From the NCBI RefSeq assembly GCF_024700885.2, contig NZ_CP117014.1: a DNA stretch of 64,000 nt. One strand, 5' to 3'. Below are positions 14,041 to 26,430 of the stretch, piece by piece. This stretch comes from Escherichia coli. GTDB taxonomy: Bacteria; Pseudomonadota; Gammaproteobacteria; Enterobacterales; Enterobacteriaceae. A program made the position numbers and the translations under genes. The notes beneath the pieces are model-generated. The model was not told the origin of the DNA, made no database searches, and saw nothing but the letters and a program-made list of their open reading frames with translations. Every line of letters begins with the position of its first letter. The first letter of the stretch is position 1.

Positions 14041-15702
14041 ATGAGTGAGGCAGAAGCCCGCCCGACTAACTTTATTCGTCAGATCATCGATGAAGATCTG
14101 GCCAGTGGTAAGCACACCACAGTACATACCCGTTTCCCGCCGGAACCGAATGGCTATCTGCATATTGGTCATGCGAAATCTATCTGCCTGAACTTCGGGA
14201 TCGCCCAGGACTATAAAGGCCAGTGCAACCTGCGTTTCGACGACACTAACCCGGTAAAAGAAGATATCGAGTACGTCGAGTCGATTAAAAACGACGTTGA
14301 ATGGTTAGGTTTTCACTGGTCTGGCAACATCCGTTACTCCTCCGATTATTTTGACAAACTCCATGCCTATGCTGTTGAACTGATCAACAAAGGCCTGGCG
14401 TATGTTGACGAACTGACGCCGGAACAGATCCGCGAATACCGCGGCACCCTGACGCAGCCGGGTAAAAACAGCCCGTACCGCGACCGCAGCGTTGAAGAGA
14501 ACCTGGCGCTGTTCGAAAAAATGCGTGCCGGTGGTTTTGAAGAAGGTAAAGCCTGCCTGCGTGCGAAAATCGACATGGCTTCGCCGTTTATCGTGATGCG
14601 CGACCCGGTGCTGTACCGCATTAAGTTTGCTGAACATCACCAGACTGGCAACAAGTGGTGCATCTACCCGATGTACGACTTCACCCACTGCATCAGCGAT
14701 GCGCTGGAAGGTATTACGCACTCTCTGTGTACGCTTGAGTTCCAGGACAACCGTCGTCTGTATGACTGGGTACTGGACAACATCACCATTCCTGTTCACC
14801 CGCGCCAGTACGAATTTTCGCGCCTGAATCTGGAATACACTGTGATGTCCAAGCGTAAGCTGAACCTGCTGGTGACCGACAAGCACGTTGAAGGCTGGGA
14901 TGACCCGCGTATGCCGACCATTTCCGGTCTGCGTCGTCGTGGTTACACTGCGGCTTCTATTCGTGAGTTCTGCAAACGCATCGGCGTGACCAAGCAGGAC
15001 AACACCATTGAGATGGCGTCGCTGGAATCCTGCATCCGTGAAGATCTCAACGAAAATGCGCCGCGCGCAATGGCGGTTATCGATCCGGTGAAACTGGTTA
15101 TCGAAAACTACCAGGGCGAAGGCGAAATGGTCACCATGCCGAACCATCCAAACAAACCGGAAATGGGTAGCCGTCAGGTGCCGTTTAGCGGTGAGATTTG
15201 GATCGACCGCGCCGATTTCCGCGAAGAAGCTAACAAGCAGTACAAACGTCTGGTGCTGGGTAAAGAAGTGCGTCTGCGTAATGCTTACGTCATTAAGGCT
15301 GAACGCGTGGAGAAAGATGCCGAAGGCAATATCACCACCATCTTCTGTACTTATGACGCCGACACCTTAAGCAAAGATCCGGCAGATGGTCGTAAAGTGA
15401 AAGGCGTTATTCACTGGGTGAGCGCGGCACATGCGCTGCCGGTTGAAATCCGCCTGTACGATCGTCTGTTCAGCGTGCCGAACCCAGGTGCTGCGGATGA
15501 TTTCCTGTCGGTGATTAACCCGGAATCGCTGGTGATCAAACAGGGTTTTGCTGAACCGTCGCTGAAAGAAGCGGTAGCGGGTAAAGCATTCCAGTTTGAG
15601 CGTGAAGGTTATTTCTGCCTCGACAGCCGCCATTCTACGGCGGAAAAACCGGTATTTAACCGCACCGTTGGGCTGCGTGATACCTGGGCGAAGTTAGGTT
15701 AA
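14041..15702 (+). CDS. glnS: Glutaminyl-tRNA synthetase
   Basis: 553-aa class I aaRS with HIGH (LHIGHAKS) and KMSKS-like (VMSKR) motifs; essentially indistinguishable by eye from enterobacterial GlnRS; own terminator. Confidence 0.95.
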
Positions 15703-18855: not shown

Positions 18856-19509
18856 CTATCCTTTCTTGAAATCGAAGTTGCCAGCAGTGGCCTGAAAGGT
18901 TCCCCCTGCCTTGAAAGCTATGTCCCCGTTAGCGGTGACAGCAATATTTTCCCCATTAACATTGATGTTGTTGGCTGATTTGACGTTAACACTCCCTCCT
19001 GCATTCACGATTACATCAGCCGGACCAATGATATATATCTGCCCGGACTCATTCATGCCAATCCTTGAGCCTGCTGCCGTATTGGCAATTTCATAGCCGC
19101 CACCAGCAGTTCGTACTTCAAGAATATTGTTGCGGTGAATAACGAAGTCTTTCGTTGCTGAGATTTGGGGGCGGGGAGGTGCTCCATCTACTTCCGGCGG
19201 CGTCCAGCCGTTGCCTTTGCCAGATGCTTCTGGTGCAACGTTTGGAATTCCTCCCGGTGCATCCTGAGCGGCACCAACTATCATTGGGCGTCTGGTGTCT
19301 ATTCGACCGTTAACATCTAAATAAGGAAACTCTACCCAGACCAGGTCACCTTTGACTGTGGGTACAAAAGCGTTTCCGATGGGTAACAGGTATTCCGCCC
19401 AGGGTAGATCGTCATCAGGAACGCCATTCCAGTCAGGTAAAACACGGACTTGAGCACGCATAAGCCCTGCCGGGTGCACAGTTCCAACAATTTGCGCTCT
19501 ACGCTTCAT
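18856..19509 (-). CDS. Baseplate spike/hub protein (gpV-like OB-fold N-terminus, beta-helical C-terminus)
   Basis: N-terminal pattern resembling phage baseplate assembly protein V; C-terminal NINVNGENIAVTANG repeats. Confidence 0.45.
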   Translation of the reverse strand: MKRRAQIVGTVHPAGLMRAQVRVLPDWNGVPDDDLPWAEYLLPIGNAFVPTVKGDLVWVEFPYLDVNGRIDTRRPMIVGAAQDAPGGIPNVAPEASGKGNGWTPPEVDGAPPRPQISATKDFVIHRNNILEVRTAGGGYEIANTAAGSRIGMNESGQIYIIGPADVIVNAGGSVNVKSANNINVNGENIAVTANGDIAFKAGGTFQATAGNFDFKKG

Positions 19510-20486
19510 TTGTTCGGCACTCCTAATATCATTCGTGTTGTGTAGCCTACGCGGTCCTCAAAGTGCGCAACATTTTTTACTATCAGCTTACGGGGCATTG
19601 ATTCATCAATGCGGTTTTCCTGGTCATAGCGGTATACGATAATCTCTATTACCATCCCCGGTTTTATATCAGGATTGCCTGCGACTTCTATATCCATTTT
19701 GGGGACGAGAGACAGCTGCATATTGCGAAGAGTTTCCATATCAGAGTCGGATATATAACGCACTGGGAGTGAGCTATCGCCATATTCGACGTAGCCATCG
19801 GTCATGGAATACCCAACAAAACGATATTGATTCTTTGCTGTTGTCGCATGTTCCTGTTGGAGTAGGCGCATTTTGGACAAAGTGTATTCTGCTTTAGGGT
19901 TATTCCCCTCGTAGGTAAATGATGGCGTTTGCTTCATCAGATCAGCCAGGGTGTAAAAGTTCAATTCCCCCCGGCATACCCAACATAATGCACCTTTGTC
20001 TCGCGCTATCTCCGAAAGCATTTTTGACGGTTTGTCACCGGCATTCAGATGATATGTAACTGCGCGTTTTAGCACGCTGCTGGTAATTTTAAGCTTGCCG
20101 GAATATGCCTTGAATATAGCGTCTGGTGTTTTGTTGGTATGTAAATTTGTGCGCGGGGAGGGGATCTTAAACCTGCGCACGTCTTCACTGACAGCAATAA
20201 CGGTAACAACATCACCAGCCAGCATTGCAGACGTAACAAAGAAATCTGTTTTAAAAGTGCCTGCATTACCGTTTGGATCGCCCATTTCAGCCACCAGCGA
20301 TGCACCGTATTTGGCTTTCCAGTCATCAATTACGGTGCCGGTAGCGTCATGAATTTCCAGTTTTAGCAAAGGGGCTTTGAGGCTGGTTTTTTCTACATAT
20401 ACTGCGGTAAAAATCCAGTCTCGAGGCACTTTGTTATCGTTAATGAGCACTGACTGTAGAAAATATTGTTGTAACTCCTGGGCCAC
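19506..20486 (-). CDS. Putative baseplate protein (326 aa)
   Basis: Translationally coupled to spike gene; no motif recognised. Confidence 0.3.
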   Translation of the reverse strand: MAQELQQYFLQSVLINDNKVPRDWIFTAVYVEKTSLKAPLLKLEIHDATGTVIDDWKAKYGASLVAEMGDPNGNAGTFKTDFFVTSAMLAGDVVTVIAVSEDVRRFKIPSPRTNLHTNKTPDAIFKAYSGKLKITSSVLKRAVTYHLNAGDKPSKMLSEIARDKGALCWVCRGELNFYTLADLMKQTPSFTYEGNNPKAEYTLSKMRLLQQEHATTAKNQYRFVGYSMTDGYVEYGDSSLPVRYISDSDMETLRNMQLSLVPKMDIEVAGNPDIKPGMVIEIIVYRYDQENRIDESMPRKLIVKNVAHFEDRVGYTTRMILGVPNK

Positions 20487-20489
20487 TTA

Positions 20490-21257
20490 TCACCCCATAG
20501 ATATCGAGGTTTCGGTAATAATACGTTTTGCGTCCAACTCCCATGCTGTGATCACGTCTGTAATCACACTTATCGGCGCTTGTGTGGCATAAATACGCTC
20601 TTCTCCAATTGGTGCTGAAACATCCGTAAAGCCGACTTCTTTGGCATCCTGTATCGAGCAAATCAGCGGGACCGGGACACGAACAAGGTGAGTGGTTGCT
20701 TCAAATTGTGTACCTGTCATCAGGCGAAGCCGTGCGCCCAGCGAATTACACATCAGACTCATGGTCGCTTTATCAGTTGCCATTAACGTAACGTCATACG
20801 TCAGAATGGCCTGGGTGTATTCCAGTTCTGCTAAAGGCATTCCGGTATCCGGTTCGCAAAAACTGGCTACTTTTTTGCGGTCAATCTGCTGATCATCGTT
20901 GATATAATTGATATCCATAGTGCGTGAGATATTGACCAGGGGGAGAGCATCCCGGTTAATGTTCTGGTTTTCAGGTTTTCTCCCTTGCCCGGCATTTGCG
21001 CGACGAACTGCTTTAAGAAACTCGATCGCATTGTCGAAACGGGCCACATAGACACGCTCTGCTGGTGGACGATTCAGGAATGACGCAAAGCGTTTTTCTT
21101 CCGGCGCGGGGGCCACCAGTAAGATATCAGAAAAGATATTGCTGATTAGCGTAGCAAACGCGTTATCCACGTTTTCAAAGCCCGTGGTCTGGAATTTCCC
21201 TGTGCGTGAGGTTTGCCATTCACCTGTTCGCGCCAGGAGGGTTTTATTTGAAGTCAT
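20490..21257 (-). CDS. Putative baseplate/tail protein (255 aa)
   Basis: ORF in same operon. Confidence 0.3.
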   Translation of the reverse strand: MTSNKTLLARTGEWQTSRTGKFQTTGFENVDNAFATLISNIFSDILLVAPAPEEKRFASFLNRPPAERVYVARFDNAIEFLKAVRRANAGQGRKPENQNINRDALPLVNISRTMDINYINDDQQIDRKKVASFCEPDTGMPLAELEYTQAILTYDVTLMATDKATMSLMCNSLGARLRLMTGTQFEATTHLVRVPVPLICSIQDAKEVGFTDVSAPIGEERIYATQAPISVITDVITAWELDAKRIITETSISMG

Positions 21258-22087
21258 TCGATCACTCCGTTTTGAGTCGTATCAAAATTTCTGGCAGGTA
21301 TGCAGTAGTAAAGCGAACCAACATGTTGTGTGCCGTAGCTAAAAATACGGTGCACGTACCACCAGCGGCGGGCTACGCCGTTTACCATCTCTTCATTCCA
21401 TTCAAGAATTGATCCGACGGGGACGTTATTTGCTGCAATACGCAGAATCAGAACATCATCGGTTAAGCCATCCTGCTCACCGTCTGCGTCAATCGCATGG
21501 AAAGAGTCACGCCCGTCAGGGTTATCCAGCACATAAACGATTTCAGGTTCCTGGTAAGTCAGTTCGCGTTGGTTGTTATCCAGTTCAGTGAATGACTCTT
21601 CTCCTGTTTCGTCGCTGACTACCCCATATGTGCCAACATCTGGTCGATATAAGAGAGCCTGAAACGCGTCTGGGCTGGATTCAATAATCAGCATCCAGTC
21701 TGCGCGGATTTGGTCGTTAAAGGCTTTATGCCCGTTATAGCGTGCTTTTAGCTGTGGCGTCGGTTCTCTGCCAGCCAAGGAAGGTGGAAGTATGGCTATA
21801 TCTGATTCGCCAGCGTCCGGAGTAAGGCCACCGTTGCTATCAGCAAAATTATCATGGCTATCAGCTTCGGCGGTGGATTGCTCTTCCAGAATGCTGAATG
21901 AATCCGGTCCGGCATTGCCATGTTCCGGCGCGCTTCCTGCATCCGCTTCAACCGTCGCTGGCGTTTCTCTCTGCGTGCTGTCATGTTCTGACTCCTTACT
22001 TGCCAGGTTTGCATCGTCAGCAAACCATTCGTCAAAACGGCCCATAAGCATCCTCAAAGGTCGATTTATCAGGTATCGAGGGTGCAT
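21254..22087 (-). CDS. Putative baseplate/tail protein (277 aa)
   Basis: First ORF of operon, overlaps next gene by 4 nt. Confidence 0.3.
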   Translation of the reverse strand: MHPRYLINRPLRMLMGRFDEWFADDANLASKESEHDSTQRETPATVEADAGSAPEHGNAGPDSFSILEEQSTAEADSHDNFADSNGGLTPDAGESDIAILPPSLAGREPTPQLKARYNGHKAFNDQIRADWMLIIESSPDAFQALLYRPDVGTYGVVSDETGEESFTELDNNQRELTYQEPEIVYVLDNPDGRDSFHAIDADGEQDGLTDDVLILRIAANNVPVGSILEWNEEMVNGVARRWWYVHRIFSYGTQHVGSLYYCIPARNFDTTQNGVIE

Positions 22088-22190
22088 TGTCTGGAGATTG
22101 TGATTTCAATTCATATCCCAGCATGGGACTAAAGTGCTTTACATTGTCCCATATTGGAACTACTATACTTTCAGTGAGAAGGAATCTGTG

Positions 22191-22493
22191 ATGAAAATAA
22201 TTTCGGTAAAAACACTAAGGGATTTTTGGGCGAAGAATCCCGATGCAGAACAGCCTTTAAAGGCATGGGTTGATGAAGCAACAAAGGCTGACTGGAAAAA
22301 TCCGGCTGAGATCAAAGAACAGTACCGGACAGCCAGCATCCTTAAAAACAGGCGCGTGGTGTTCAATATTAAGGGAAATGATTACAGGTTAATTGTCGCA
22401 ATTGCTTATCAGCGAGGATGGATGTTCGTTAAGTTTATTGGAACACACAAGGAATACGATGCCATTGACGCGGATACAATAGAACTGGAGTAA
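22191..22493 (+). CDS. higB: HigB-family type II toxin (RelE/ParE fold)
   Basis: 100 aa with conserved ...FNIKGNDYRLI...FIGTHKEYD pattern; toxin-first gene order. Confidence 0.75.
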   Translation: MKIISVKTLRDFWAKNPDAEQPLKAWVDEATKADWKNPAEIKEQYRTASILKNRRVVFNIKGNDYRLIVAIAYQRGWMFVKFIGTHKEYDAIDADTIELE

Positions 22494-22496
22494 ATC

Positions 22497-22856
22497 ATGA
22501 ACATTAAACCTATCCGTACAGAACAAGATTATGAGGCCGCACTGCGTGCGGTCGAACCGATGTTCGATAACGAACCGGAAATGAACACCCCGGAAGGTGA
22601 TTTCTTTGAGGTCATGTGTCTTCTCATTGAGGAGTACGAGAAAAAACATTACCCAATTGAGCCACCATCACCTATTGAAGCCATTAAATTCCGCATGGAA
22701 CAGCAAGGGCTGACCGTGAAGGATCTGGAACCGGCAATTGGTAAGTCAAACCGTGTTTACGAAGTGCTTAATGGGACACGAAATTTGACGTTACCTATGA
22801 TTCGTCGTTTACATGCCCAGTTTGGTATTCCACTGGAAAGTCTGGTTGGTGTTTAA
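22497..22856 (+). CDS. higA: HigA-family antitoxin (XRE-type HTH)
   Basis: 119 aa, starts 4 nt after higB stop; C-terminal HTH-like segment (GLTVKDLEPAIGKSNRVYEVLNG). Confidence 0.75.
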   Translation: MNIKPIRTEQDYEAALRAVEPMFDNEPEMNTPEGDFFEVMCLLIEEYEKKHYPIEPPSPIEAIKFRMEQQGLTVKDLEPAIGKSNRVYEVLNGTRNLTLPMIRRLHAQFGIPLESLVGV

Positions 22857-22916
22857 GTTTTGCGGTCTGGATGACCGCTTTTACATAAAATCAATGTTTA
22901 AATATTTGGTAATTAT

Positions 22917-23648
22917 ATGAGCGCTGATTCATCAATAGAAAAGGAAAACCCCTCTACCAAAAATCTGTTAGAAGACGCTGTAAAAGATAAGTTGTTTAAT
23001 AAGGTTTTTGCCTATATTTTTATTTCATTTTTAATTTCTAACTGGCAAGAAATATTGATTTTGTTTAAATCAAAATATGATATATACACAACACTATCTA
23101 TAGTATGGATTGGTGACAAATATCAAGTCCCTTATTTGGGAACCTTCATTGTACCTCCGTTTTTAGCTCACTTTGTTATGCCGTTTATATATGGCACTGT
23201 TGCGTCCATAGTAATGCCTTATATTACTATGCGTATATCAAAACTAACTGGTAGAAATTATGCGCAAATAAGACATATTGACCGTGAATTTGACTCAAAA
23301 GAGCAAGCAAGATTAGATGAGTTACAGAAAGAAATAGAACAAAAAAAAGATGAGCGTTTAAGTCTAGAAAAGAAAATAGAAGATCAACGTAAATCATTGG
23401 CTAAAATTGAAGGTGAAAAGAAAGAAGTTGAGGACGCTAGAATATCCCTGTTTTATGGGATAAAGGCAATAGTTGATATATATGAAACCAAAGGCGAAAG
23501 CATTTCCACCCAAGAGGATTTTGCTGATTTACTAAAGGCAGTCGAACAAACTGATTTTTATAAAGATACAGGTTTATACGGTATTAATAAATTGGTAGAT
23601 GATGTAAAAAGAATATACGAACATCAATCTATCTTAAATGATAAGTAA
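22917..23648 (+). CDS. Membrane protein with 2-3 N-terminal transmembrane helices and a long charged coiled coil (243 aa)
   Basis: Strongly AT-rich gene; hydrophobic segments (FAYIFISFLISNWQEILILF; FIVPPFLAHFVMPFIYGTVASIVMPYITM) then E/K-rich heptads. Confidence 0.5.
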   Translation: MSADSSIEKENPSTKNLLEDAVKDKLFNKVFAYIFISFLISNWQEILILFKSKYDIYTTLSIVWIGDKYQVPYLGTFIVPPFLAHFVMPFIYGTVASIVMPYITMRISKLTGRNYAQIRHIDREFDSKEQARLDELQKEIEQKKDERLSLEKKIEDQRKSLAKIEGEKKEVEDARISLFYGIKAIVDIYETKGESISTQEDFADLLKAVEQTDFYKDTGLYGINKLVDDVKRIYEHQSILNDK

Positions 23649-23677
23649 TAACATAGGCGGGATAACCGCCTATGTTA
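23648..23677. terminator. Bidirectional hairpin between convergent genes
   Basis: TAACATAGGCGG-gataa-CCGCCTATGTTA inverted repeat. Confidence 0.45.
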
Positions 23678-23681
23678 TCAA

Positions 23682-24878
23682 TCAAGAACCTTTCTTCACA
23701 TACTCCATGAACATTTTTTCAGCCTGCTCAGGTGACGTTCCTGCCATGACAAGCGCATCAATGAACGCCTGCTTCTTCAGTGCGAACTGATCGGCAAGGC
23801 GTTGCTGAAGCTCCTTGTTTTTCTGTTTCTCACGTTGCAAGGCCGCTTCTTTTGCTGCCGCCCGTTTTTTCTGTGCGTCTGACAACTTTCTGGCTTTGGT
23901 CAATTGGTCACGTAGCTTGTCAATTTTGCCGTTGTCCTTTGCCAGTTTTGTGCTTAAAGCGGCCTGGCGCTTCTGATAGAGCCTCCATTCGCGCTTGGCA
24001 GCGTCAACGTTTGTTTTACTGTTGCGATTGCGATTAAACTCCCTCTCGTCTTCTTTTGAGAAGTGTTTGGTTGTACGGCGGCGATCGTCACCAAATGCAA
24101 TTTGCGTTGCGGCCTTTTGTAACGCACGAGCAATACTCATTTGCCAACTGGCGGACTGTAACCGCGTCATTGAGTGGATCACGTGTTTACAGGCGACGCC
24201 TTGTAGCTTAGGGTTACGAACTTTTGGATAGGCGTATTCTTTTGGCGGGGCCAGGGCAAAGTTACCTGCAGTAGCGATGTAACGATACCAGTATTGATGA
24301 CGACCACAGTCACAATCGAAAGACACCCGCCCAGCGCACAGTGATTTAGTGATTTTCAGAGCTGATTTATCGTCTTCTGCGATGTCATCGACCATCTGAT
24401 CCCATTCTTCAAAGCGTATCCGGACGATATGGTGCTGGTGGACGGATATATCCGATGCTTCTACGCGGATATTAATCACGTTGTGGCGAAGAGATACGGG
24501 TGTAGCTCTTTTGATACCAGATCCGTCATCCACGGCGTTATTTGCACGCTTAATATCGATTGCCTGGCTGGATGCCACCAGCTGGGCGTATGTGATGCCA
24601 GCCGTCTTGCTGTCATATTTTTCGCGTGTTTTACTCCGTAGCTTTTCGAAACCTTTCAGGTCGTCTCGCGTGAAGAACGTGCCGCCTTTTTTCTTCCCTA
24701 ACTTGAGAATATCTTCGGCGGATTTGTTCCTCAGTCTACCTGGCGTCAGCGTCCGGTGAGCTTGTCGGCGCTTACGGGTTTGTTCTTTCCTGATAAGGTC
24801 GAATAAACGCGTGAAGTCCTTAGAGGACAGGCCGTCAGTGATATAGCGCCCGTCCTGGTTTTTCAGGAAATCAGGCAT
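23682..24878 (-). CDS. SWIM-type zinc-finger protein with basic N-terminus and K/R/Q-rich coiled-coil C-terminus (398 aa)
   Basis: CDCGRHQYW...(25)...CKHVIH matches a CxC-Xn-CxH SWIM finger. Confidence 0.45.
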   Translation of the reverse strand: MPDFLKNQDGRYITDGLSSKDFTRLFDLIRKEQTRKRRQAHRTLTPGRLRNKSAEDILKLGKKKGGTFFTRDDLKGFEKLRSKTREKYDSKTAGITYAQLVASSQAIDIKRANNAVDDGSGIKRATPVSLRHNVINIRVEASDISVHQHHIVRIRFEEWDQMVDDIAEDDKSALKITKSLCAGRVSFDCDCGRHQYWYRYIATAGNFALAPPKEYAYPKVRNPKLQGVACKHVIHSMTRLQSASWQMSIARALQKAATQIAFGDDRRRTTKHFSKEDEREFNRNRNSKTNVDAAKREWRLYQKRQAALSTKLAKDNGKIDKLRDQLTKARKLSDAQKKRAAAKEAALQREKQKNKELQQRLADQFALKKQAFIDALVMAGTSPEQAEKMFMEYVKKGS

Positions 24879-25200
24879 TTTCTATCTCCGGTTCCGCGCT
24901 CGCGTAATCACGGATCTTGTTCCTCAGCCATGCCACATCAGGAAGAGTTAACGTGGTCCCGGCGGGCATTTCTTCCATTTCTGACTCATGGCCCACCAGC
25001 ACCCGGAATACCCAGCGCAAATCTGCATTGCCATACGCCCGGTAGGCTGCAAGGTCTGAACGATATACTTCATCAATCTTTATCGTGTACTGGAAATTAT
25101 CAGAGTGATACTCCGATACCCGCTTAATCATTTCCTGGTGAAACAGCGCACGAAAAATATCGTCTTCAATGTACCTATCGTCGAGTCTGCTATAGCCCAT
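24871..25200 (-). CDS. Hypothetical protein (109 aa), translationally coupled to SWIM protein
   Basis: 8-nt overlap with downstream gene. Confidence 0.4.
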   Translation of the reverse strand: MGYSRLDDRYIEDDIFRALFHQEMIKRVSEYHSDNFQYTIKIDEVYRSDLAAYRAYGNADLRWVFRVLVGHESEMEEMPAGTTLTLPDVAWLRNKIRDYASAEPEIENA

Positions 25201-25372
25201 AACAAAGCCTCTCAGTCATAACCTGGGGGAAACTGTATGCAGGGTGTGAAATGCGAGAAACAGACAGGTCACCATAAATCCCCTCACTGGTGACAAGTGA
25301 CTTTCATTAATCTTTATGCGGGGGCCAGCTTCATTTGCTGGCATTAGATTAAAAATTAAACGGAGTGAATGA

Positions 25373-25507
25373 CATGGATGTTATATTCGAATTATTAATG
25401 CTAATTGATCTGTTTATGAACGCTTCATTGACCACTCAAATACTCGCGTCAATATTTTTGTTACTCTTCTACCTGGTATTGAGGGAGTTAACAAAGCTAC
25501 TAATGTG
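25373..25507 (+). CDS. Small hydrophobic peptide (44 aa), candidate membrane-active toxin-like peptide
   Basis: MDVIFELLMLIDLFMNASLTTQILASIFLLLFYLVLRELTKLLM; GGAG 12 nt upstream; below the track's 60-aa cutoff. Confidence 0.3.
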
Positions 25508-25508
25508 A

Positions 25509-26162
25509 TCAAAGTATCACGGTATCTTCATCAACTTCTTTCCCAGCCAGTGACTTTGGCTGGGAGGTGCCTGCTTTAACTTTTTCATGCCCAATAATGG
25601 ACAGGAACGAAGCGAGTATGCCTGTTTTTTGCTCTTTCTCGACTGTACCGGTCATCTGCTCTACATAATCTGCACTGGCAACGTTGTGGTATACGGTCGC
25701 GTAGCAACACAGGATCATCAAAATATGCTCCGGCCTGATATCCTGCCAGTTCACCCTGTAGACTTCTTCTCCGTTACCGTTGTATTCGGTATCAACGATA
25801 GAGTCGGGGATTTCGAAAGCACCTTTGTTATTTTGCGGCAGGGATAATAGTTTCTGGAGTTTTAACTCTCTGTATCTTTCCATCCCAACGATGATTGCTG
25901 CTCTACCATCGGCATGACGGGTCTTGAGAGTCACCTGGCTTGCTCCGGTGCCAGCGGAGATCGTTGGCGTAATTTCGTCTACTAGAACCTTAAATTTGCT
26001 TTTCCGCAGGGCTGCTATAGCTGGAGGAATTTTTTGCTTTTGCTCCAATGCTGACGCGGGAAGGGGTTTTACTTCGTTAATAATGAGAGCACCGTCTTTC
26101 AGTATTGCAGTGAGCATTTGAGGCTTGCTGGTGGTCAGGCTGAATATTGCGATCTTTTCCAT
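25509..26162 (-). CDS. Hypothetical protein (217 aa from ATG 26162, GGAGGAAGG RBS)
   Basis: Track ORF extends to 26204 but a strong RBS precedes the internal ATG and a terminator hairpin occupies 26197-26213. Confidence 0.4.
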   Translation of the reverse strand: MEKIAIFSLTTSKPQMLTAILKDGALIINEVKPLPASALEQKQKIPPAIAALRKSKFKVLVDEITPTISAGTGASQVTLKTRHADGRAAIIVGMERYRELKLQKLLSLPQNNKGAFEIPDSIVDTEYNGNGEEVYRVNWQDIRPEHILMILCCYATVYHNVASADYVEQMTGTVEKEQKTGILASFLSIIGHEKVKAGTSQPKSLAGKEVDEDTVIL

Positions 26163-26189
26163 TTTCCTTCCTCCACGGATGACGGATAC

Positions 26190-26213
26190 AAAAAAAGGCC
26201 GCACATGGCGGCC
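26190..26213 (-). terminator. Rho-independent terminator (minus strand)
   Basis: GGCCGC-acat-GCGGCC with A7 on plus strand = U7 tail on minus. Confidence 0.5.
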
Positions 26214-26430
26214 TGCTTTGGCGTTATGACTCCCTACCGCGCTTCGGCTGAAAGTTAATCGTCAAAAGAACCTTCAACGGGAGCCGTTAGCGCGATGGAT
26301 TATGTGCAGTTTGTGATTTCCAAAATAGTGTCAACCACTTTTTGTGGATTTTATTTTTTGACCGAAATTTGGCCTAAATCATGTTGATGTAGTTAATTGT
26401 TTTTATAACATAAAACTTCATTTTGTTTAC

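What the first reader, a model, noticed from the sequence alone, without database searches (positions are those of the whole stretch)
23682..25200. Two-gene operon encoding a SWIM zinc-finger protein with basic and coiled-coil regions
The 398-aa protein contains CxC-X25-CxH (CDCGRHQYW...CKHVIH), consistent with a SWIM finger, between a basic N-terminal region and a K/R/Q-rich coiled-coil C-terminus. It is translationally coupled to an upstream 109-aa gene. SWIM domains are rare in phage proteins, and the function here is unknown.
Basis: partly seen in the sequence, partly recalled or inferred. Interest (0 to 1): 0.45.

Follow-up and report, generated by a model that had tools for sequence, protein, structure and literature searches.

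The report
P1 gene-25 tail protein, split SWIM finger
The two genes are the well-known phage P1 late tail genes 26 and 25 in a D6-like phage-plasmid. The new point is that the still unexplained gene 25 "tail stability" protein is a very basic protein built around a zinc finger of the SWIM type that is interrupted by a conserved loop.

Summary
Both ORFs are real and lie on the minus strand: 109 aa at 24871..25200 and 398 aa at 23682..24878, overlapping by 8 nt (ATGCCTGA). The window is a D6-like P1-family phage-plasmid, and the ORFs are orthologues of P1 genes 26 and 25.

- **gp26:** the LysM-like baseplate "plug", solved in P1 virions.
- **gp25:** the genetically defined "tail stability" protein. 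It gives a weak virion MS signal, no HHpred hit in the literature, and is absent from all deposited P1 virion structures.
- **The motif:** it is CxC-X38-CxH, not X25. The ligands are invariant, and the motif occurs in 261 of 261 full-length relatives.
- **Charge:** the family is uniformly very basic (pI about 10).
- **Synteny:** a gp26 homologue sits directly upstream in 160 of 164 loci.

My best guess (about 0.35) is a low-copy, non-symmetric tail-channel component that binds a polyanion. A transient assembly chaperone is nearly as likely. This is a known gene with a modestly new domain insight, so interest is moderate.

The parts
24871..25200 (-). Gene 26 orthologue (109 aa). LysM-like baseplate 'plug' or wedge protein of the T4 gp53 / P2 gpX type.
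   Evidence: ORF. D6 annotation 'similar to P1 gene 26'. phrog_1269 E 2.3e-36. Matches the solved P1 Gp26 chains 9ay5_S and 9vzk at E 1e-16. Only weak Pfam hits: Phage_gp53 E 0.066, Phage_tail_X E 0.34. P1 gp26 is modelled as a six-fold plug between hub and wedges (PMC12810830).
23682..24878 (-). Gene 25 orthologue (398 aa, pI about 10). The P1-family 'tail stability' protein and the subject of the finding.
   Evidence: ORF. 98% protein identity to D6 and 57% to P1 gp25. phrog_1722 E 1.5e-196. 298 close relatives and 672 clusters at 50% identity. AlphaFold2 mean pLDDT 82, pTM 0.72.
24871..24878 (-). 8-nt overlap ATGCCTGA between the stop codon of gene 26 and the start codon of gene 25, giving translational coupling.
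   Evidence: Read directly from the sequence. In related loci the 26-25 junction is +1, -8 or +9 nt in 145 of 164 loci.
24618..24878 (-). N-terminal basic arm of gp25, residues 1-87.
   Evidence: 25 K+R against 12 D+E, pI 10.7. Predicted helices at 19-39 and 71-87, with a low-confidence linker between them. This region is net positive in 96% of 251 relatives.
24093..24617 (-). Conserved alpha/beta core domain of gp25, residues 88-262. It contains the split SWIM finger.
   Evidence: Model of the core alone: pLDDT 94, pTM 0.90. In AFDB50 only family members match it. Invariant residues: G94, C189, C191, E214, N222, G227, C230, K231, H232.
24159..24326 (-). Split SWIM-type Cys3His site, residues 185-240. 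The strand ends in C189-x-C191 (nt 24306..24314). Helix 231-239 starts at C230-K-H232 (nt 24183..24191).
24198..24263 (-). Conserved insertion loop inside the finger, residues 206-227, consensus ...P.E..(F/Y)PK(I/V)RNP.L.G.
   Evidence: E214, N222 and G227 are invariant. P218 and K219 are nearly invariant across 57 diverse members. Predicted to lack regular secondary structure.
23685..24008 (-). C-terminal basic helical arm of gp25, residues 291-398, ending in a small conserved helical motif (...G.S.EQAE..F..Y.K).
   Evidence: Helices at 291-314, 316-331, 334-378 and 383-395. 27 K+R against 14 D+E. Net positive in 98.8% of 251 relatives although the sequence is poorly conserved. C-terminal motif seen.
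23646..23680 (.). 35-nt hairpin with 15 predicted pairs, between the convergent gene 25 and the 243-aa plus-strand ORF. Probably a bidirectional terminator that ends the 26-25 transcription unit.
   Evidence: Terminator scan and sequence.
22134..23648 (+). Opposite-strand cassette: HigB-like toxin, HigA-like antitoxin and a 243-aa protein of unknown function with coiled-coil-type family hits. It splits the ancestral operon between genes 25 and 7.
   Evidence: ORFs. PADLOC PD-Lambda-2_A E 3e-42, and PD-Lambda-2_B matched over its N-terminal part only. Genes 25 and 7 are contiguous in P1. Related plasmids carry other toxin-antitoxin pairs in this slot.
18856..22087 (-). The rest of the ancestral late operon: gene 7 (21254..22087, stopper), gene 24 (20490..21257, tail terminator), gene 6 (19506..20486, hub) and gene 5 (18856..19509, spike).
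   Evidence: ORFs. D6 annotation. PHROGs matches. The gp7 homologue matches the solved P1 Gp7 chain 9ums_B at E 7e-43. Roles are taken from PMC12810830 and PMC10304247.

Best explanation
**Shown: identity.** The two ORFs are the D6-type orthologues of phage P1 late genes 26 and 25. Here they form a two-gene unit, because a toxin-antitoxin cassette has split the ancestral operon 26-25-7-24-6-5.

**Shown: gp26.** It is the LysM-like baseplate plug.

**Shown or predicted: gp25 architecture.**
- A compact alpha/beta core (residues 88-262) carries a SWIM-type Cys3His site: C189, C191, C230, H232.
- A strictly conserved 26-29-residue loop interrupts the finger.
- Two basic helical arms flank the core. 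The whole-protein pI is about 10, and this is conserved across the family.

**Inferred: mechanism.**
- gp25 is neither a stoichiometric building block of the tail nor a transcription factor.
- It is a low-copy accessory protein, not arranged symmetrically, that is loaded while the tail is built. Its production is coupled to that of gp26.
- It ends up in a part of the particle that symmetric cryo-EM cannot resolve. That is the central channel of the tail or neck, beside the unresolved tape-measure protein or the DNA end.
- There the basic arms would lie against a polyanionic surface. This could be the electronegative tube lumen or DNA.
- The zinc-stabilised core, with its conserved loop, would dock onto a protein partner.
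- Without gp25, tails are still made but do not stay in the extended state. This is the classical 'tail stability' phenotype.
For: **Identity**
- 97.4% DNA identity to phage D6, with D6 notes 'similar to P1 gene 25 / 26'.
- 57% protein identity to P1 gp25.
- phrog_1722 E 1.5e-196.

**Zinc site**
- Ligands are invariant, and the motif occurs in 261 of 261 full-length members.
- High-confidence core model: pLDDT 94.
- Pfam SWIM hits appear after excising the loop: 16 of 40 at E<=1e-3.
- UniProt 'SWIM-type' names for relatives.

**Present in the virion at low copy**
- In P1, gp25 gave 2 peptides and 8.4% coverage.
- This is the same order as true 3-6-copy components: gp7 gave 2 peptides (11%) and gp6 gave 4 peptides (17%).
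- Other 1-6-copy proteins (gp26, gp5, UpfC, PmgA) were not detected at all (PMC9024508).

**Not a resolved component**
- Two independent P1 tail and baseplate reconstructions assign gp26, gp7, gp24, gp6 and gp5 but never mention gp25.
- The PDB copy holds P1 Gp26 and Gp7 chains but nothing that matches gp25.
- The tape-measure protein in the lumen is also unresolved.

**Polyanion binding**
- pI is 10.05 +/- 0.22 in 251 relatives.
- All three regions are net positive: the C-terminal arm in 98.8% of members, the N-terminal arm in 96% and the core in 100%. The arm sequences themselves are poorly conserved.
- Some relatives carry Lys/Pro/Ala-rich, histone-H1-like tails.
- The P1 tube lumen is reported to be electronegative (PMC10304247).

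**Link to tail assembly**
- A gp26 homologue lies immediately upstream on the same strand in 160 of 164 loci.
- Neighbours in distant relatives are tail-fibre, baseplate and neck genes.
Against: - No direct evidence places gp25 in the channel.
- The weak MS signal could be carry-over of an abundant late protein.
- Tight coupling to gp26, combined with absence from maps, is equally what a transient chaperone would show.
- The 'tail stability' phenotype is known to me only through annotations and secondary citations. I could not read the primary paper.
- CRISPRi knock-down of P1 gene 25 lowered plating only about 10-fold. The authors attribute this to a weak roadblock.
- Zinc binding, DNA binding and oligomeric state are untested.
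- Pfam does not recognise SWIM in the native sequence.
- The excision test was designed by me to restore canonical spacing, so it leans towards a positive result.
Confidence: 0.35

Rival explanations
1. gp25 is a transient assembly chaperone or catalyst. It is made in step with gp26 and helps to insert the gp26 plug, or to join the wedges to the hub, or to finish the tail. It then leaves. In role this would resemble T4 gp26, gp51 and gp28, which are needed for hub assembly but are not in the finished baseplate.
For: - Adjacency and coupling to gp26 are strictly conserved (160 of 164 loci; 8-nt overlap here).
- gp25 is absent from all P1 virion models and from the PDB.
- Gonzales et al. themselves suggest a chaperone or cofactor role for gp7, gp16 and gp25.
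- T4 gp26, which NCBI names a 'baseplate hub assembly chaperone', also has four invariant Cys arranged CxC...CxxC.
- A badly seated plug could plausibly give tails that fire prematurely.
Against: - gp25 peptides were found in purified virions at a level similar to 3-6-copy structural proteins.
- A net charge of about +35 that is conserved over poorly conserved arms is unusual for a protein chaperone.
- There is no detectable homology to T4 gp26 (hhalign probability 4.6%, 14 columns) or to gp51.
- Gene 25 mutants are annotated as 'tail stability', not 'baseplate' as gene 26 is.
Confidence: 0.3
2. gp25 is a DNA-end-binding or pilot protein. It sits at the neck or portal channel on the packaged DNA end and helps head-tail joining. 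It is then injected with the DNA, where it could protect the ends. This would be a functional analogue of T4 gp2 or Mu N.
For: - The protein has a SWIM finger and a family-wide pI of about 10. Some relatives have Lys-rich H1-like tails.
- The next gene in the ancestral operon is the stopper gp7, followed by the terminator gp24. Both share the 'tail stability' label.
- Low-copy virion signal.
- One distant relative sits next to DarA- and DarB-like injected proteins.
Against: - No sequence similarity to T4 gp2 (hhalign probability 0.1%).
- No density in the connector channel has been attributed to such a protein.
- DNA binding is untested.
- The most strictly conserved neighbour is the baseplate protein gp26, not the neck proteins.
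Confidence: 0.15
3. gp25 is a non-structural DNA-binding regulator or nucleoid-associated protein that happens to be encoded in a late operon.
For: - Zinc finger plus basic composition.
- One GenBank record annotates a relative as 'transcriptional regulator MvaT'.
Against: - The gene is always embedded among tail, baseplate and neck genes of P1-type myophages.
- It is expressed from a late promoter in P1.
- Peptides were found in virions.
- The annotated phenotype is morphogenetic.
- The MvaT label has no support from Pfam.
Confidence: 0.05
4. The Cys/His cluster is not a SWIM zinc site. It would be a family-specific structural or redox motif, and the resemblance to SWIM would be superficial.
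For: - Pfam SWIM does not match any native sequence (0 of 57).
- The spacer of 36-43 residues lies outside the classical 6-25 range.
- PDB Foldseek finds nothing.
Against: - All four ligand positions are invariant, in the canonical order CxC...CxH. 'CKH' lies at a helix start and CxC at a strand end.
- Pfam SWIM reaches E 2e-6 after the loop is removed.
- An independent profile-based annotation in UniProt names relatives 'SWIM-type'.
Confidence: 0.08

Closest known systems
Phage P1 gp25 ('tail stability' protein; phrog_1722, with distant branch phrog_4315)
   Same: - It is an orthologue: 57% identity over 84% of the length.
- Length, gene position after gene 26, and the invariant Cys/His cluster all match.
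   Different: - The C-terminal roughly 60 residues diverge.
- In P1 the gene is followed directly by gene 7. Here an opposite-strand toxin-antitoxin cassette and a hairpin separate the two.
SWIM zinc finger (Pfam PF04434, PROSITE ZF_SWIM), for example in ZSWIM8, MEKK1, MuDR/FAR1 transposase-derived proteins and bacterial SWIM-SNF2 ATPases
   Same: - CxC...CxH ligand order.
- CxC lies at the end of a strand, and C-K-H begins a helix.
- Hydrophobic pattern around 'CKHV(I/L)'.
- Pfam hits after loop excision.
   Different: - The spacer is 36-43 residues, with a strictly conserved loop (P.E..FPKIRNP.L.G). In the model a helix follows CxC.
- The native sequence is not recognised by Pfam.
- The finger is embedded in a 175-residue family-specific core.
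- The context is virion morphogenesis, not a helicase, transposase or ubiquitin ligase.
T4 gp26 / gp51 / gp28 (baseplate hub assembly factors)
   Same: - They are required for tail or baseplate assembly yet absent from the finished structure. This is established knowledge for T4, and searches show the same absence for P1 gp25.
- T4 gp26 also has an invariant CxC plus a distant second Cys pair.
   Different: - No detectable homology.
- T4 gp26 is 208 aa.
- gp25 peptides are found in P1 virions.
T4 gp2 and Mu N (DNA-end protector or circularisation proteins carried in the virion)
   Same: - Basic, low-copy virion-associated proteins.
- Not part of the symmetric tail or neck lattice.
- T4 gene 2 lies near gene 53, the counterpart of P1 gene 26.
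   Different: - No sequence similarity.
- T4 gp2 has no zinc finger.
- No evidence that gp25 binds DNA ends or is injected.

Membership tests
P1 gp25 family ('tail stability' protein, phrog_1722/4315) | Full-length sequence homology to P1 gp25 | tested here: met
   - phrog_1722 E 1.5e-196 over residues 2-396.
- 57% identity to P1 gp25 and 98% to D6 orf74.
P1 gp25 family ('tail stability' protein, phrog_1722/4315) | Position directly downstream of the gene 26 (LysM plug) homologue, within the late tail/neck operon 26-25-7-24-6-5 | tested here: met
   - 8-nt overlap with the gene 26 homologue.
- The same adjacency holds in 160 of 164 loci.
- Genes 7, 24, 6 and 5 lie downstream, although an inserted cassette interrupts the run here.
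P1 gp25 family ('tail stability' protein, phrog_1722/4315) | Loss of function gives unstable (contracted) tails | not testable with these tools
   - The phenotype is known only from annotation and secondary citation of Walker & Walker 1983.
- The primary paper is not held.
SWIM zinc finger (PF04434 / PROSITE ZF_SWIM) | CxCxnCxH signature with conserved ligands | tested here: met
   - C189, C191, C230 and H232 are invariant.
- The motif is present in 261 of 261 full-length members.
- However n = 36-43, outside the classical 6-25 range.
SWIM zinc finger (PF04434 / PROSITE ZF_SWIM) | Significant match to the family profile | tested here: inconclusive
   - Native sequences: no PF04434 hit for the query or for any of 57 members.
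- After in-silico excision of the conserved loop: 16 of 40 at E<=1e-3, 30 of 40 at E<=0.1, best 2.1e-6.
- The query itself reaches only E 0.077.
- UniProt names relatives 'SWIM-type'.
SWIM zinc finger (PF04434 / PROSITE ZF_SWIM) | Beta-strand(s) carrying CxC followed by a helix that starts at CxH (beta-beta-alpha type fold) | tested here: inconclusive
   - In the AlphaFold2 models, strand 185-189 ends at C189 and helix 231-239 starts at C230.
- Between them lie a helix (192-205) and a loop, instead of the second strand.
SWIM zinc finger (PF04434 / PROSITE ZF_SWIM) | Binds one zinc ion through Cys3His | not testable with these tools
   Needs metal analysis of purified protein.
T4 gp53 / P2 gpX-type LysM baseplate protein (for the 109-aa ORF) | Homology to a structurally placed baseplate LysM 'plug' | tested here: met
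   - Matches solved P1 Gp26 (9ay5_S, 9vzk) at E 1e-16.
- phrog_1269 'baseplate wedge subunit' E 2.3e-36.
- Direct Pfam hits to Phage_gp53 and Phage_tail_X are weak: E 0.066 and 0.34.
T4 gp26-family baseplate hub assembly chaperone (PF12322) | Profile-level sequence homology | tested here: not met
   hhalign of the gp25 core profile against a 26-sequence gp26 profile gave probability 4.6% over 14 columns around CxCG only. Against the single T4 sequence the probability was 1.5%.
T4 gp2 DNA end protector | Sequence homology | tested here: not met
   hhalign probability 0.1%.

The most novel reading that the evidence does not exclude
gp25 would define an undescribed class of low-copy virion 'passenger'. 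It would be a zinc-finger, histone-like basic protein that rides in the tail or neck channel of P1-type myophages. Its loading would be coupled to baseplate plug assembly. It would be ejected ahead of or with the DNA and would bind the incoming genome, for end protection or piloting. That would make it a P1-supergroup analogue of T4 gp2 or Mu N, built on a split SWIM finger.
Probability: 0.15. Interest if true: 0.6.

Novelty: new variant of a known kind. Interest (0 to 1): 0.35.

Why it matters
**Why the gene stands out.** P1 is a classical model phage, and its virion has now been modelled almost completely. Gene 25 is the only gene of the 26-25-7-24-6-5 operon that still has no location or mechanism.

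- HHpred found nothing for it in the literature (PMC9024508).
- The structural papers do not mention it.

**What this work adds.**
- The gene encodes a conserved zinc-site protein, a SWIM finger split by an invariant loop.
- It has a family-wide pI of about 10.
- It is tightly coupled to the baseplate plug gene.

Together these give concrete, testable handles: ligand and loop mutants, a copy-number measurement, asymmetric reconstruction of the tail lumen, and DNA or partner binding assays.

**A side benefit.** The natural split of the operon in D6-like phage-plasmids offers a simple explanation for a published CRISPRi paradox. In P1, roadblocks in genes 25 and 26 were not polar on genes 7, 24, 6 and 5. 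The split shows that genes 7-5 can be expressed independently of 26-25.

**Limits.** None of this overturns current views. The gene family and its tail role were already known.

Tried and rejected
1. **Pfam on native sequences.** No SWIM hit for the query, for 57 core sequences or for 30 diverse full-length members. The last set gave only coiled-coil noise.
2. **PDB by sequence** **and by Foldseek**. No meaningful match.
3. **AFDB50 Foldseek with the core model.** The 50 matches listed were all family members, so no outside fold relative emerged.
4. **Homology to T4 assembly or end-binding proteins.** Rejected for gp2, gp51 and gp26. The gp26 resemblance around 'CxCG ... WY ... YPKI' looked tempting against the single sequence. 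It shrank to 14 columns in the profile-profile comparison.
5. **A head-module reading.** It was suggested by gene order in Acinetobacter phage ABMM1 and Xanthomonas phage Rb1, where the gene lies near the capsid or portal genes. I rejected it as a general rule. The upstream genes there are tail-fibre-like, and both phages are P1-type myophages with scattered modules.
6. **Is the small ORF downstream in distant relatives (phrog_4597) a gp7 stopper homologue?** hhalign E 0.24, so not demonstrated.
7. **An HeH/SAP-like reading of the C-terminal motif.** No Pfam support.
8. **Search for a P1-type late promoter box upstream of genes 26 and 7.** 8 matches against 5.4 expected, which is uninformative. 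The sigma-70 scan was also at background.
9. **First viral-contig scan.** It returned only close relatives. A second scan with a distant member was needed.
10. **Defence function.** PADLOC gave no hit for gp25.
Full report
**1. What is in the sequence**

The finding spans two minus-strand ORFs.
- A 109-aa ORF lies at 24871..25200.
- A 398-aa ORF lies at 23682..24878.

They overlap by 8 nt (ATGCCTGA). A GGAG sits 8-11 nt upstream of the second start codon, inside the first gene. Translational coupling is therefore a fair reading.

The Cys/His cluster is C189-D-C191 ... C230-K-H232. Translating nt 24306..24314 and 24183..24191 by hand gives CDC and CKH.

A 35-nt hairpin with 15 predicted pairs (23646..23680) follows the stop codon of the 398-aa ORF. 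It separates that ORF from a convergent plus-strand ORF.

**2. What the genes are**

The stretch is 97.4% identical to Escherichia phage D6, a P1-family phage-plasmid. D6 annotates the two genes as 'similar to P1 gene 26' and 'similar to P1 gene 25'.

A 5.3-kb stretch around the genes (21000..26300) matches 121 plasmid records of Escherichia, Salmonella and Shigella. 119 of them are non-mobilizable, and the listed examples are about 75-97 kb.

For the 398-aa protein:
- It is 98% identical to D6 orf74 and 57% identical to P1 gp25.
- It matches phrog_1722 'tail protein' at E 1.5e-196.

For the 109-aa protein:
- It matches phrog_1269.
- It matches the solved P1 Gp26 chains 9ay5_S and 9vzk at E 1e-16.

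In P1 the late promoter LP26 is annotated just upstream of a contiguous gene run 26-25-7-24-6-5. In this window, genes 25 and 7 are separated by about 1.6 kb. That stretch holds 1.5 kb of plus-strand genes: a HigB/HigA-like pair and a 243-aa protein of unknown function. Here, therefore, 26-25 is effectively a two-gene unit derived from a six-gene operon.

**3. What the literature says about P1 gp25**

- **Gonzales et al. 2022 (PMC9024508).** They found gp25 in purified virions with 2 peptides and 8.4% coverage. HHpred gave no match above 50% probability. They kept the old genetic label 'tail stability' and suggested that gp7, gp16 and gp25 might be diverged structural proteins or assembly cofactors.
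- **A 2025 preprint and a 2026 whole-virion study (PMC12810830).** Together they assign every other product of the operon:
  - gp26 is the plug between hub and wedges.
  - gp7 is the stopper.
  - gp24 is the tail terminator (also PMC10304247).
  - gp6 is the hub.
  - gp5 is the spike.
- **gp25 in these studies.** P1 gp25 is not mentioned in either. The tape-measure protein in the tail lumen was also not resolved.
- **The PDB copy.** It contains P1 Gp26 and Gp7 chains, which the window homologues hit. Nothing in it matches gp25. The negative is therefore meaningful.
- **A CRISPRi screen (PMC10695390).** Knock-downs of genes 25 and 26 reduced plating only about 10-fold. They were not polar on genes 7, 24, 6 and 5. 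The authors called this a 'double contradiction'.

**4. Is it a SWIM finger?**

*Conservation*
- The four ligands are invariant in 34 relatives and in 57 more diverse relatives.
- Among 269 collected family proteins, all 261 full-length ones have CxC-X36..43-CxH. The spacer is 38 residues in 156 and 37 in 96. The 8 exceptions are fragments.
- The residues between the ligand pairs are also strongly conserved. The consensus is F(D/E)CxCGRHxYWYRY.AT.G ... E..FPKIRNP.L.G..CKHVL. E214, N222 and G227 are invariant.

*Structure prediction*
- The full-length model has pLDDT 82 and pTM 0.72.
- The model of the core alone (residues 88-262) has pLDDT 94 and pTM 0.90.
- The order of elements is a three-stranded sheet, then helices, then a strand ending at C189. 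A helix (192-205) and an irregular loop (206-230) follow. A final helix starts at C230-K-H232.

*Profile tests*
- Pfam PF04434 does not match the native query, any of 57 cores or any of 30 diverse full-length members.
- I removed the loop in silico, keeping CxC plus 9 residues and joining them to 3 residues before CxH.
- After that, PF04434 matched 16 of 40 members at E<=1e-3 and 30 of 40 at E<=0.1. The best E-value was 2.1e-6 and the query itself reached 0.077.
- I designed that test to restore canonical spacing, so it leans towards SWIM. Even so, such E-values need the surrounding pattern and not only the ligands.

*Fold searches*
- PDB Foldseek found nothing.
- In AFDB50 the 50 matches listed are all family members. 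Many are already named 'SWIM-type domain-containing protein' by UniProt, and one is named 'Tail stability protein (P1-like gp25)'.

*Conclusion.* This is a SWIM-type Cys3His site interrupted by a family-specific conserved loop of 26-29 residues. Zinc binding itself remains untested.

**5. Other family properties**

- **Size and hosts.** The family has 672 clusters at 50% identity. Members occur in prophages and phage-plasmids of many Proteobacteria.
- **Charge.** In 251 members the pI is 10.05 +/- 0.22.
  - The N-terminal arm is net positive in 96% of members, the core in 100% and the C-terminal arm in 98.8%.
  - The arm sequences themselves are poorly conserved.
- **Tails.** Some members have Lys/Pro/Ala/Thr-rich, H1-like tails. 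Most end in a small helical motif that is duplicated in some. Pfam does not recognise this motif.
- **Synteny upstream.** Across 168 loci, a gp26 homologue was found in 164. It lies immediately upstream on the same strand in 160 of them. Many of these loci are close relatives, so they are not independent.
- **Synteny in distant relatives (36-49% identity).**
  - The upstream genes are tail-fibre and tail-fibre-assembly genes.
  - The downstream gene is a 160-290-aa ORF of phrog_4597.
  - Homology of that ORF to the gp7 stopper was not demonstrated.
- **Host phages.** The three distant relatives I examined in any detail look like P1-type myophages. In Rb1 I confirmed a sheath and PmgG- and PmgB-like genes. 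ABMM1 is annotated with a tail sheath. The L005 contig carries a baseplate-protein gene.
- **One further neighbour.** One relative sits next to DarA- and DarB-like genes.

**6. How it most likely works**

*What is shown*
- Orthology to an essential tail gene.
- A conserved metal-site core.
- Conserved strong basicity.
- Conserved coupling to the plug gene.
- Peptides in virions.
- Absence from symmetric maps.

*What I infer (about 0.35)*
- The MS signal of gp25 (2 peptides) is comparable to that of genuine 3-6-copy parts: gp7 gave 2 peptides and gp6 gave 4.
- Several 1-6-copy proteins were missed altogether.
- I therefore favour a true low-copy component that is flexible or not symmetrically arranged.
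- Its most likely site is the central channel of the tail or neck, next to the unresolved tape-measure protein or the DNA end.
- There the basic arms would contact an acidic surface. The P1 tube lumen is reported to be electronegative.
- The finger and its loop would dock on a protein partner.
- Loss would leave tails that form but do not stay extended.

*Rivals*
- A transient chaperone for plug or hub-wedge assembly (about 0.3). This is the role played in T4 by gp26 and gp51. T4 gp26 also has invariant CxC...CxxC cysteines but is not homologous.
- A DNA-end or pilot protein (about 0.15). There is no similarity to T4 gp2.
- A non-structural regulator (about 0.05).
- A non-SWIM Cys cluster (about 0.08).

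**7. Novelty and verdict**

The genes are known and annotated. The tail role of gene 25 has been known genetically since the 1980s. An automatic 'SWIM-type' label already exists for relatives in UniProt.

The following points did not appear in the searchable literature:
- P1 gp25 is a split SWIM finger.
- It has an invariant inserted loop.
- The family is uniformly very basic.
- It is the only product of its operon without a place in the solved virion.

This is a useful, testable lead on a small open question in a model phage. It is not a surprise of principle. I rate interest at about 0.35 and classify it as a new variant of a known kind.

Noticed in passing
window 22134..23648 (+): A cassette is wedged between tail genes 25 and 7, which are contiguous in P1.
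- It holds a HigB-like toxin (PADLOC PD-Lambda-2_A, E 3e-42).
- It holds a HigA-like HTH antitoxin, which matches only the first 119 of 402 positions of PD-Lambda-2_B. This looks like a plain toxin-antitoxin pair, not the full defence system.
- It also holds a 243-aa protein of unknown function (phrog_8191) whose weak family hits are coiled-coil types (ClpB, SMC-related, LmuB).
- Related D6-like plasmids carry different toxin-antitoxin pairs in this slot (HigB against RelE/ParE), so it looks like an exchange hot spot.
   Followed up: partly
window 21254..25200 (-), compared with P1 NC_005856 76119..78455: The natural split of the operon here shows that genes 7-24-6-5 can be expressed without read-through from 26-25. 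A hairpin and opposite-strand genes lie between genes 25 and 7. This may explain the published 'double contradiction' that CRISPRi roadblocks in P1 genes 25 and 26 are not polar on genes 7, 24, 6 and 5 (PMC10695390). I could not identify the promoter upstream of gene 7.
   Followed up: partly
window 23646..23680: A 35-nt hairpin with 15 predicted pairs lies between the convergent 243-aa ORF and gene 25. It is probably a bidirectional terminator.
   Followed up: no
window 21254..22087 (-): The gp7 (stopper) homologue is 277 aa, against 242 aa in P1. Only residues 110-270 align to the solved P1 Gp7 chain 9ums_B. The first roughly 110 residues include a long, very acidic, low-complexity stretch rich in D, E, S and A. 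That stretch is the opposite in charge to the neighbouring basic gp25.
   Followed up: no
L002 5803..6429 (T4 gene 26); alignment A5: The T4 gp26 family (NCBI name 'baseplate hub assembly chaperone', PF12322) has four invariant cysteines arranged CxC ... CxxC: C82, C84, C187 and C190. This suggests a metal site in a hub assembly factor that is absent from the mature baseplate. It is not homologous to P1 gp25 (hhalign probability 4.6%).
   Followed up: partly
proteins P0159, P0237, P0199, P0152, P0172 (distant family members): Some gp25-family members carry long Lys/Pro/Ala/Thr-rich, histone-H1-like tails. Some carry one or two copies of a short C-terminal helix-turn-helix-like motif (for example '...AKFHGVNVEQVRAIL...'). 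Pfam recognises neither feature.
   Followed up: partly
L005 11730..21143 (metagenomic contig with a distant gp25 relative): Directly after the 26-like / 25-like / phrog_4597 triad come two giant ORFs. One is 1177 aa with DarA_N and InPase domains. The other is 2174 aa or longer, with methylase and helicase domains, like DarB. These resemble P1's injected anti-restriction proteins.
   Followed up: no
window 14041..15702 (+): A 553-aa ORF has the same length as the glutamine--tRNA ligase gene annotated in phage D6, and lies at the equivalent position. An aminoacyl-tRNA synthetase is an unusual gene for a phage-plasmid to carry. I did not verify it here beyond the D6 annotation.
   Followed up: no
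L004 8154..8720 (Xanthomonas phage Rb1, opposite strand): In Rb1 no gp26 homologue precedes the gp25-like gene. An unannotated 188-aa ORF whose sequence looks like a lipoprotein lies on the opposite strand instead. It sits between the tape-measure/transglycosylase gene and the gp25-like gene. GenBank annotates the gp25-like gene as 'transcriptional regulator MvaT', which looks like a mis-annotation driven by the basic tail.
   Followed up: partly
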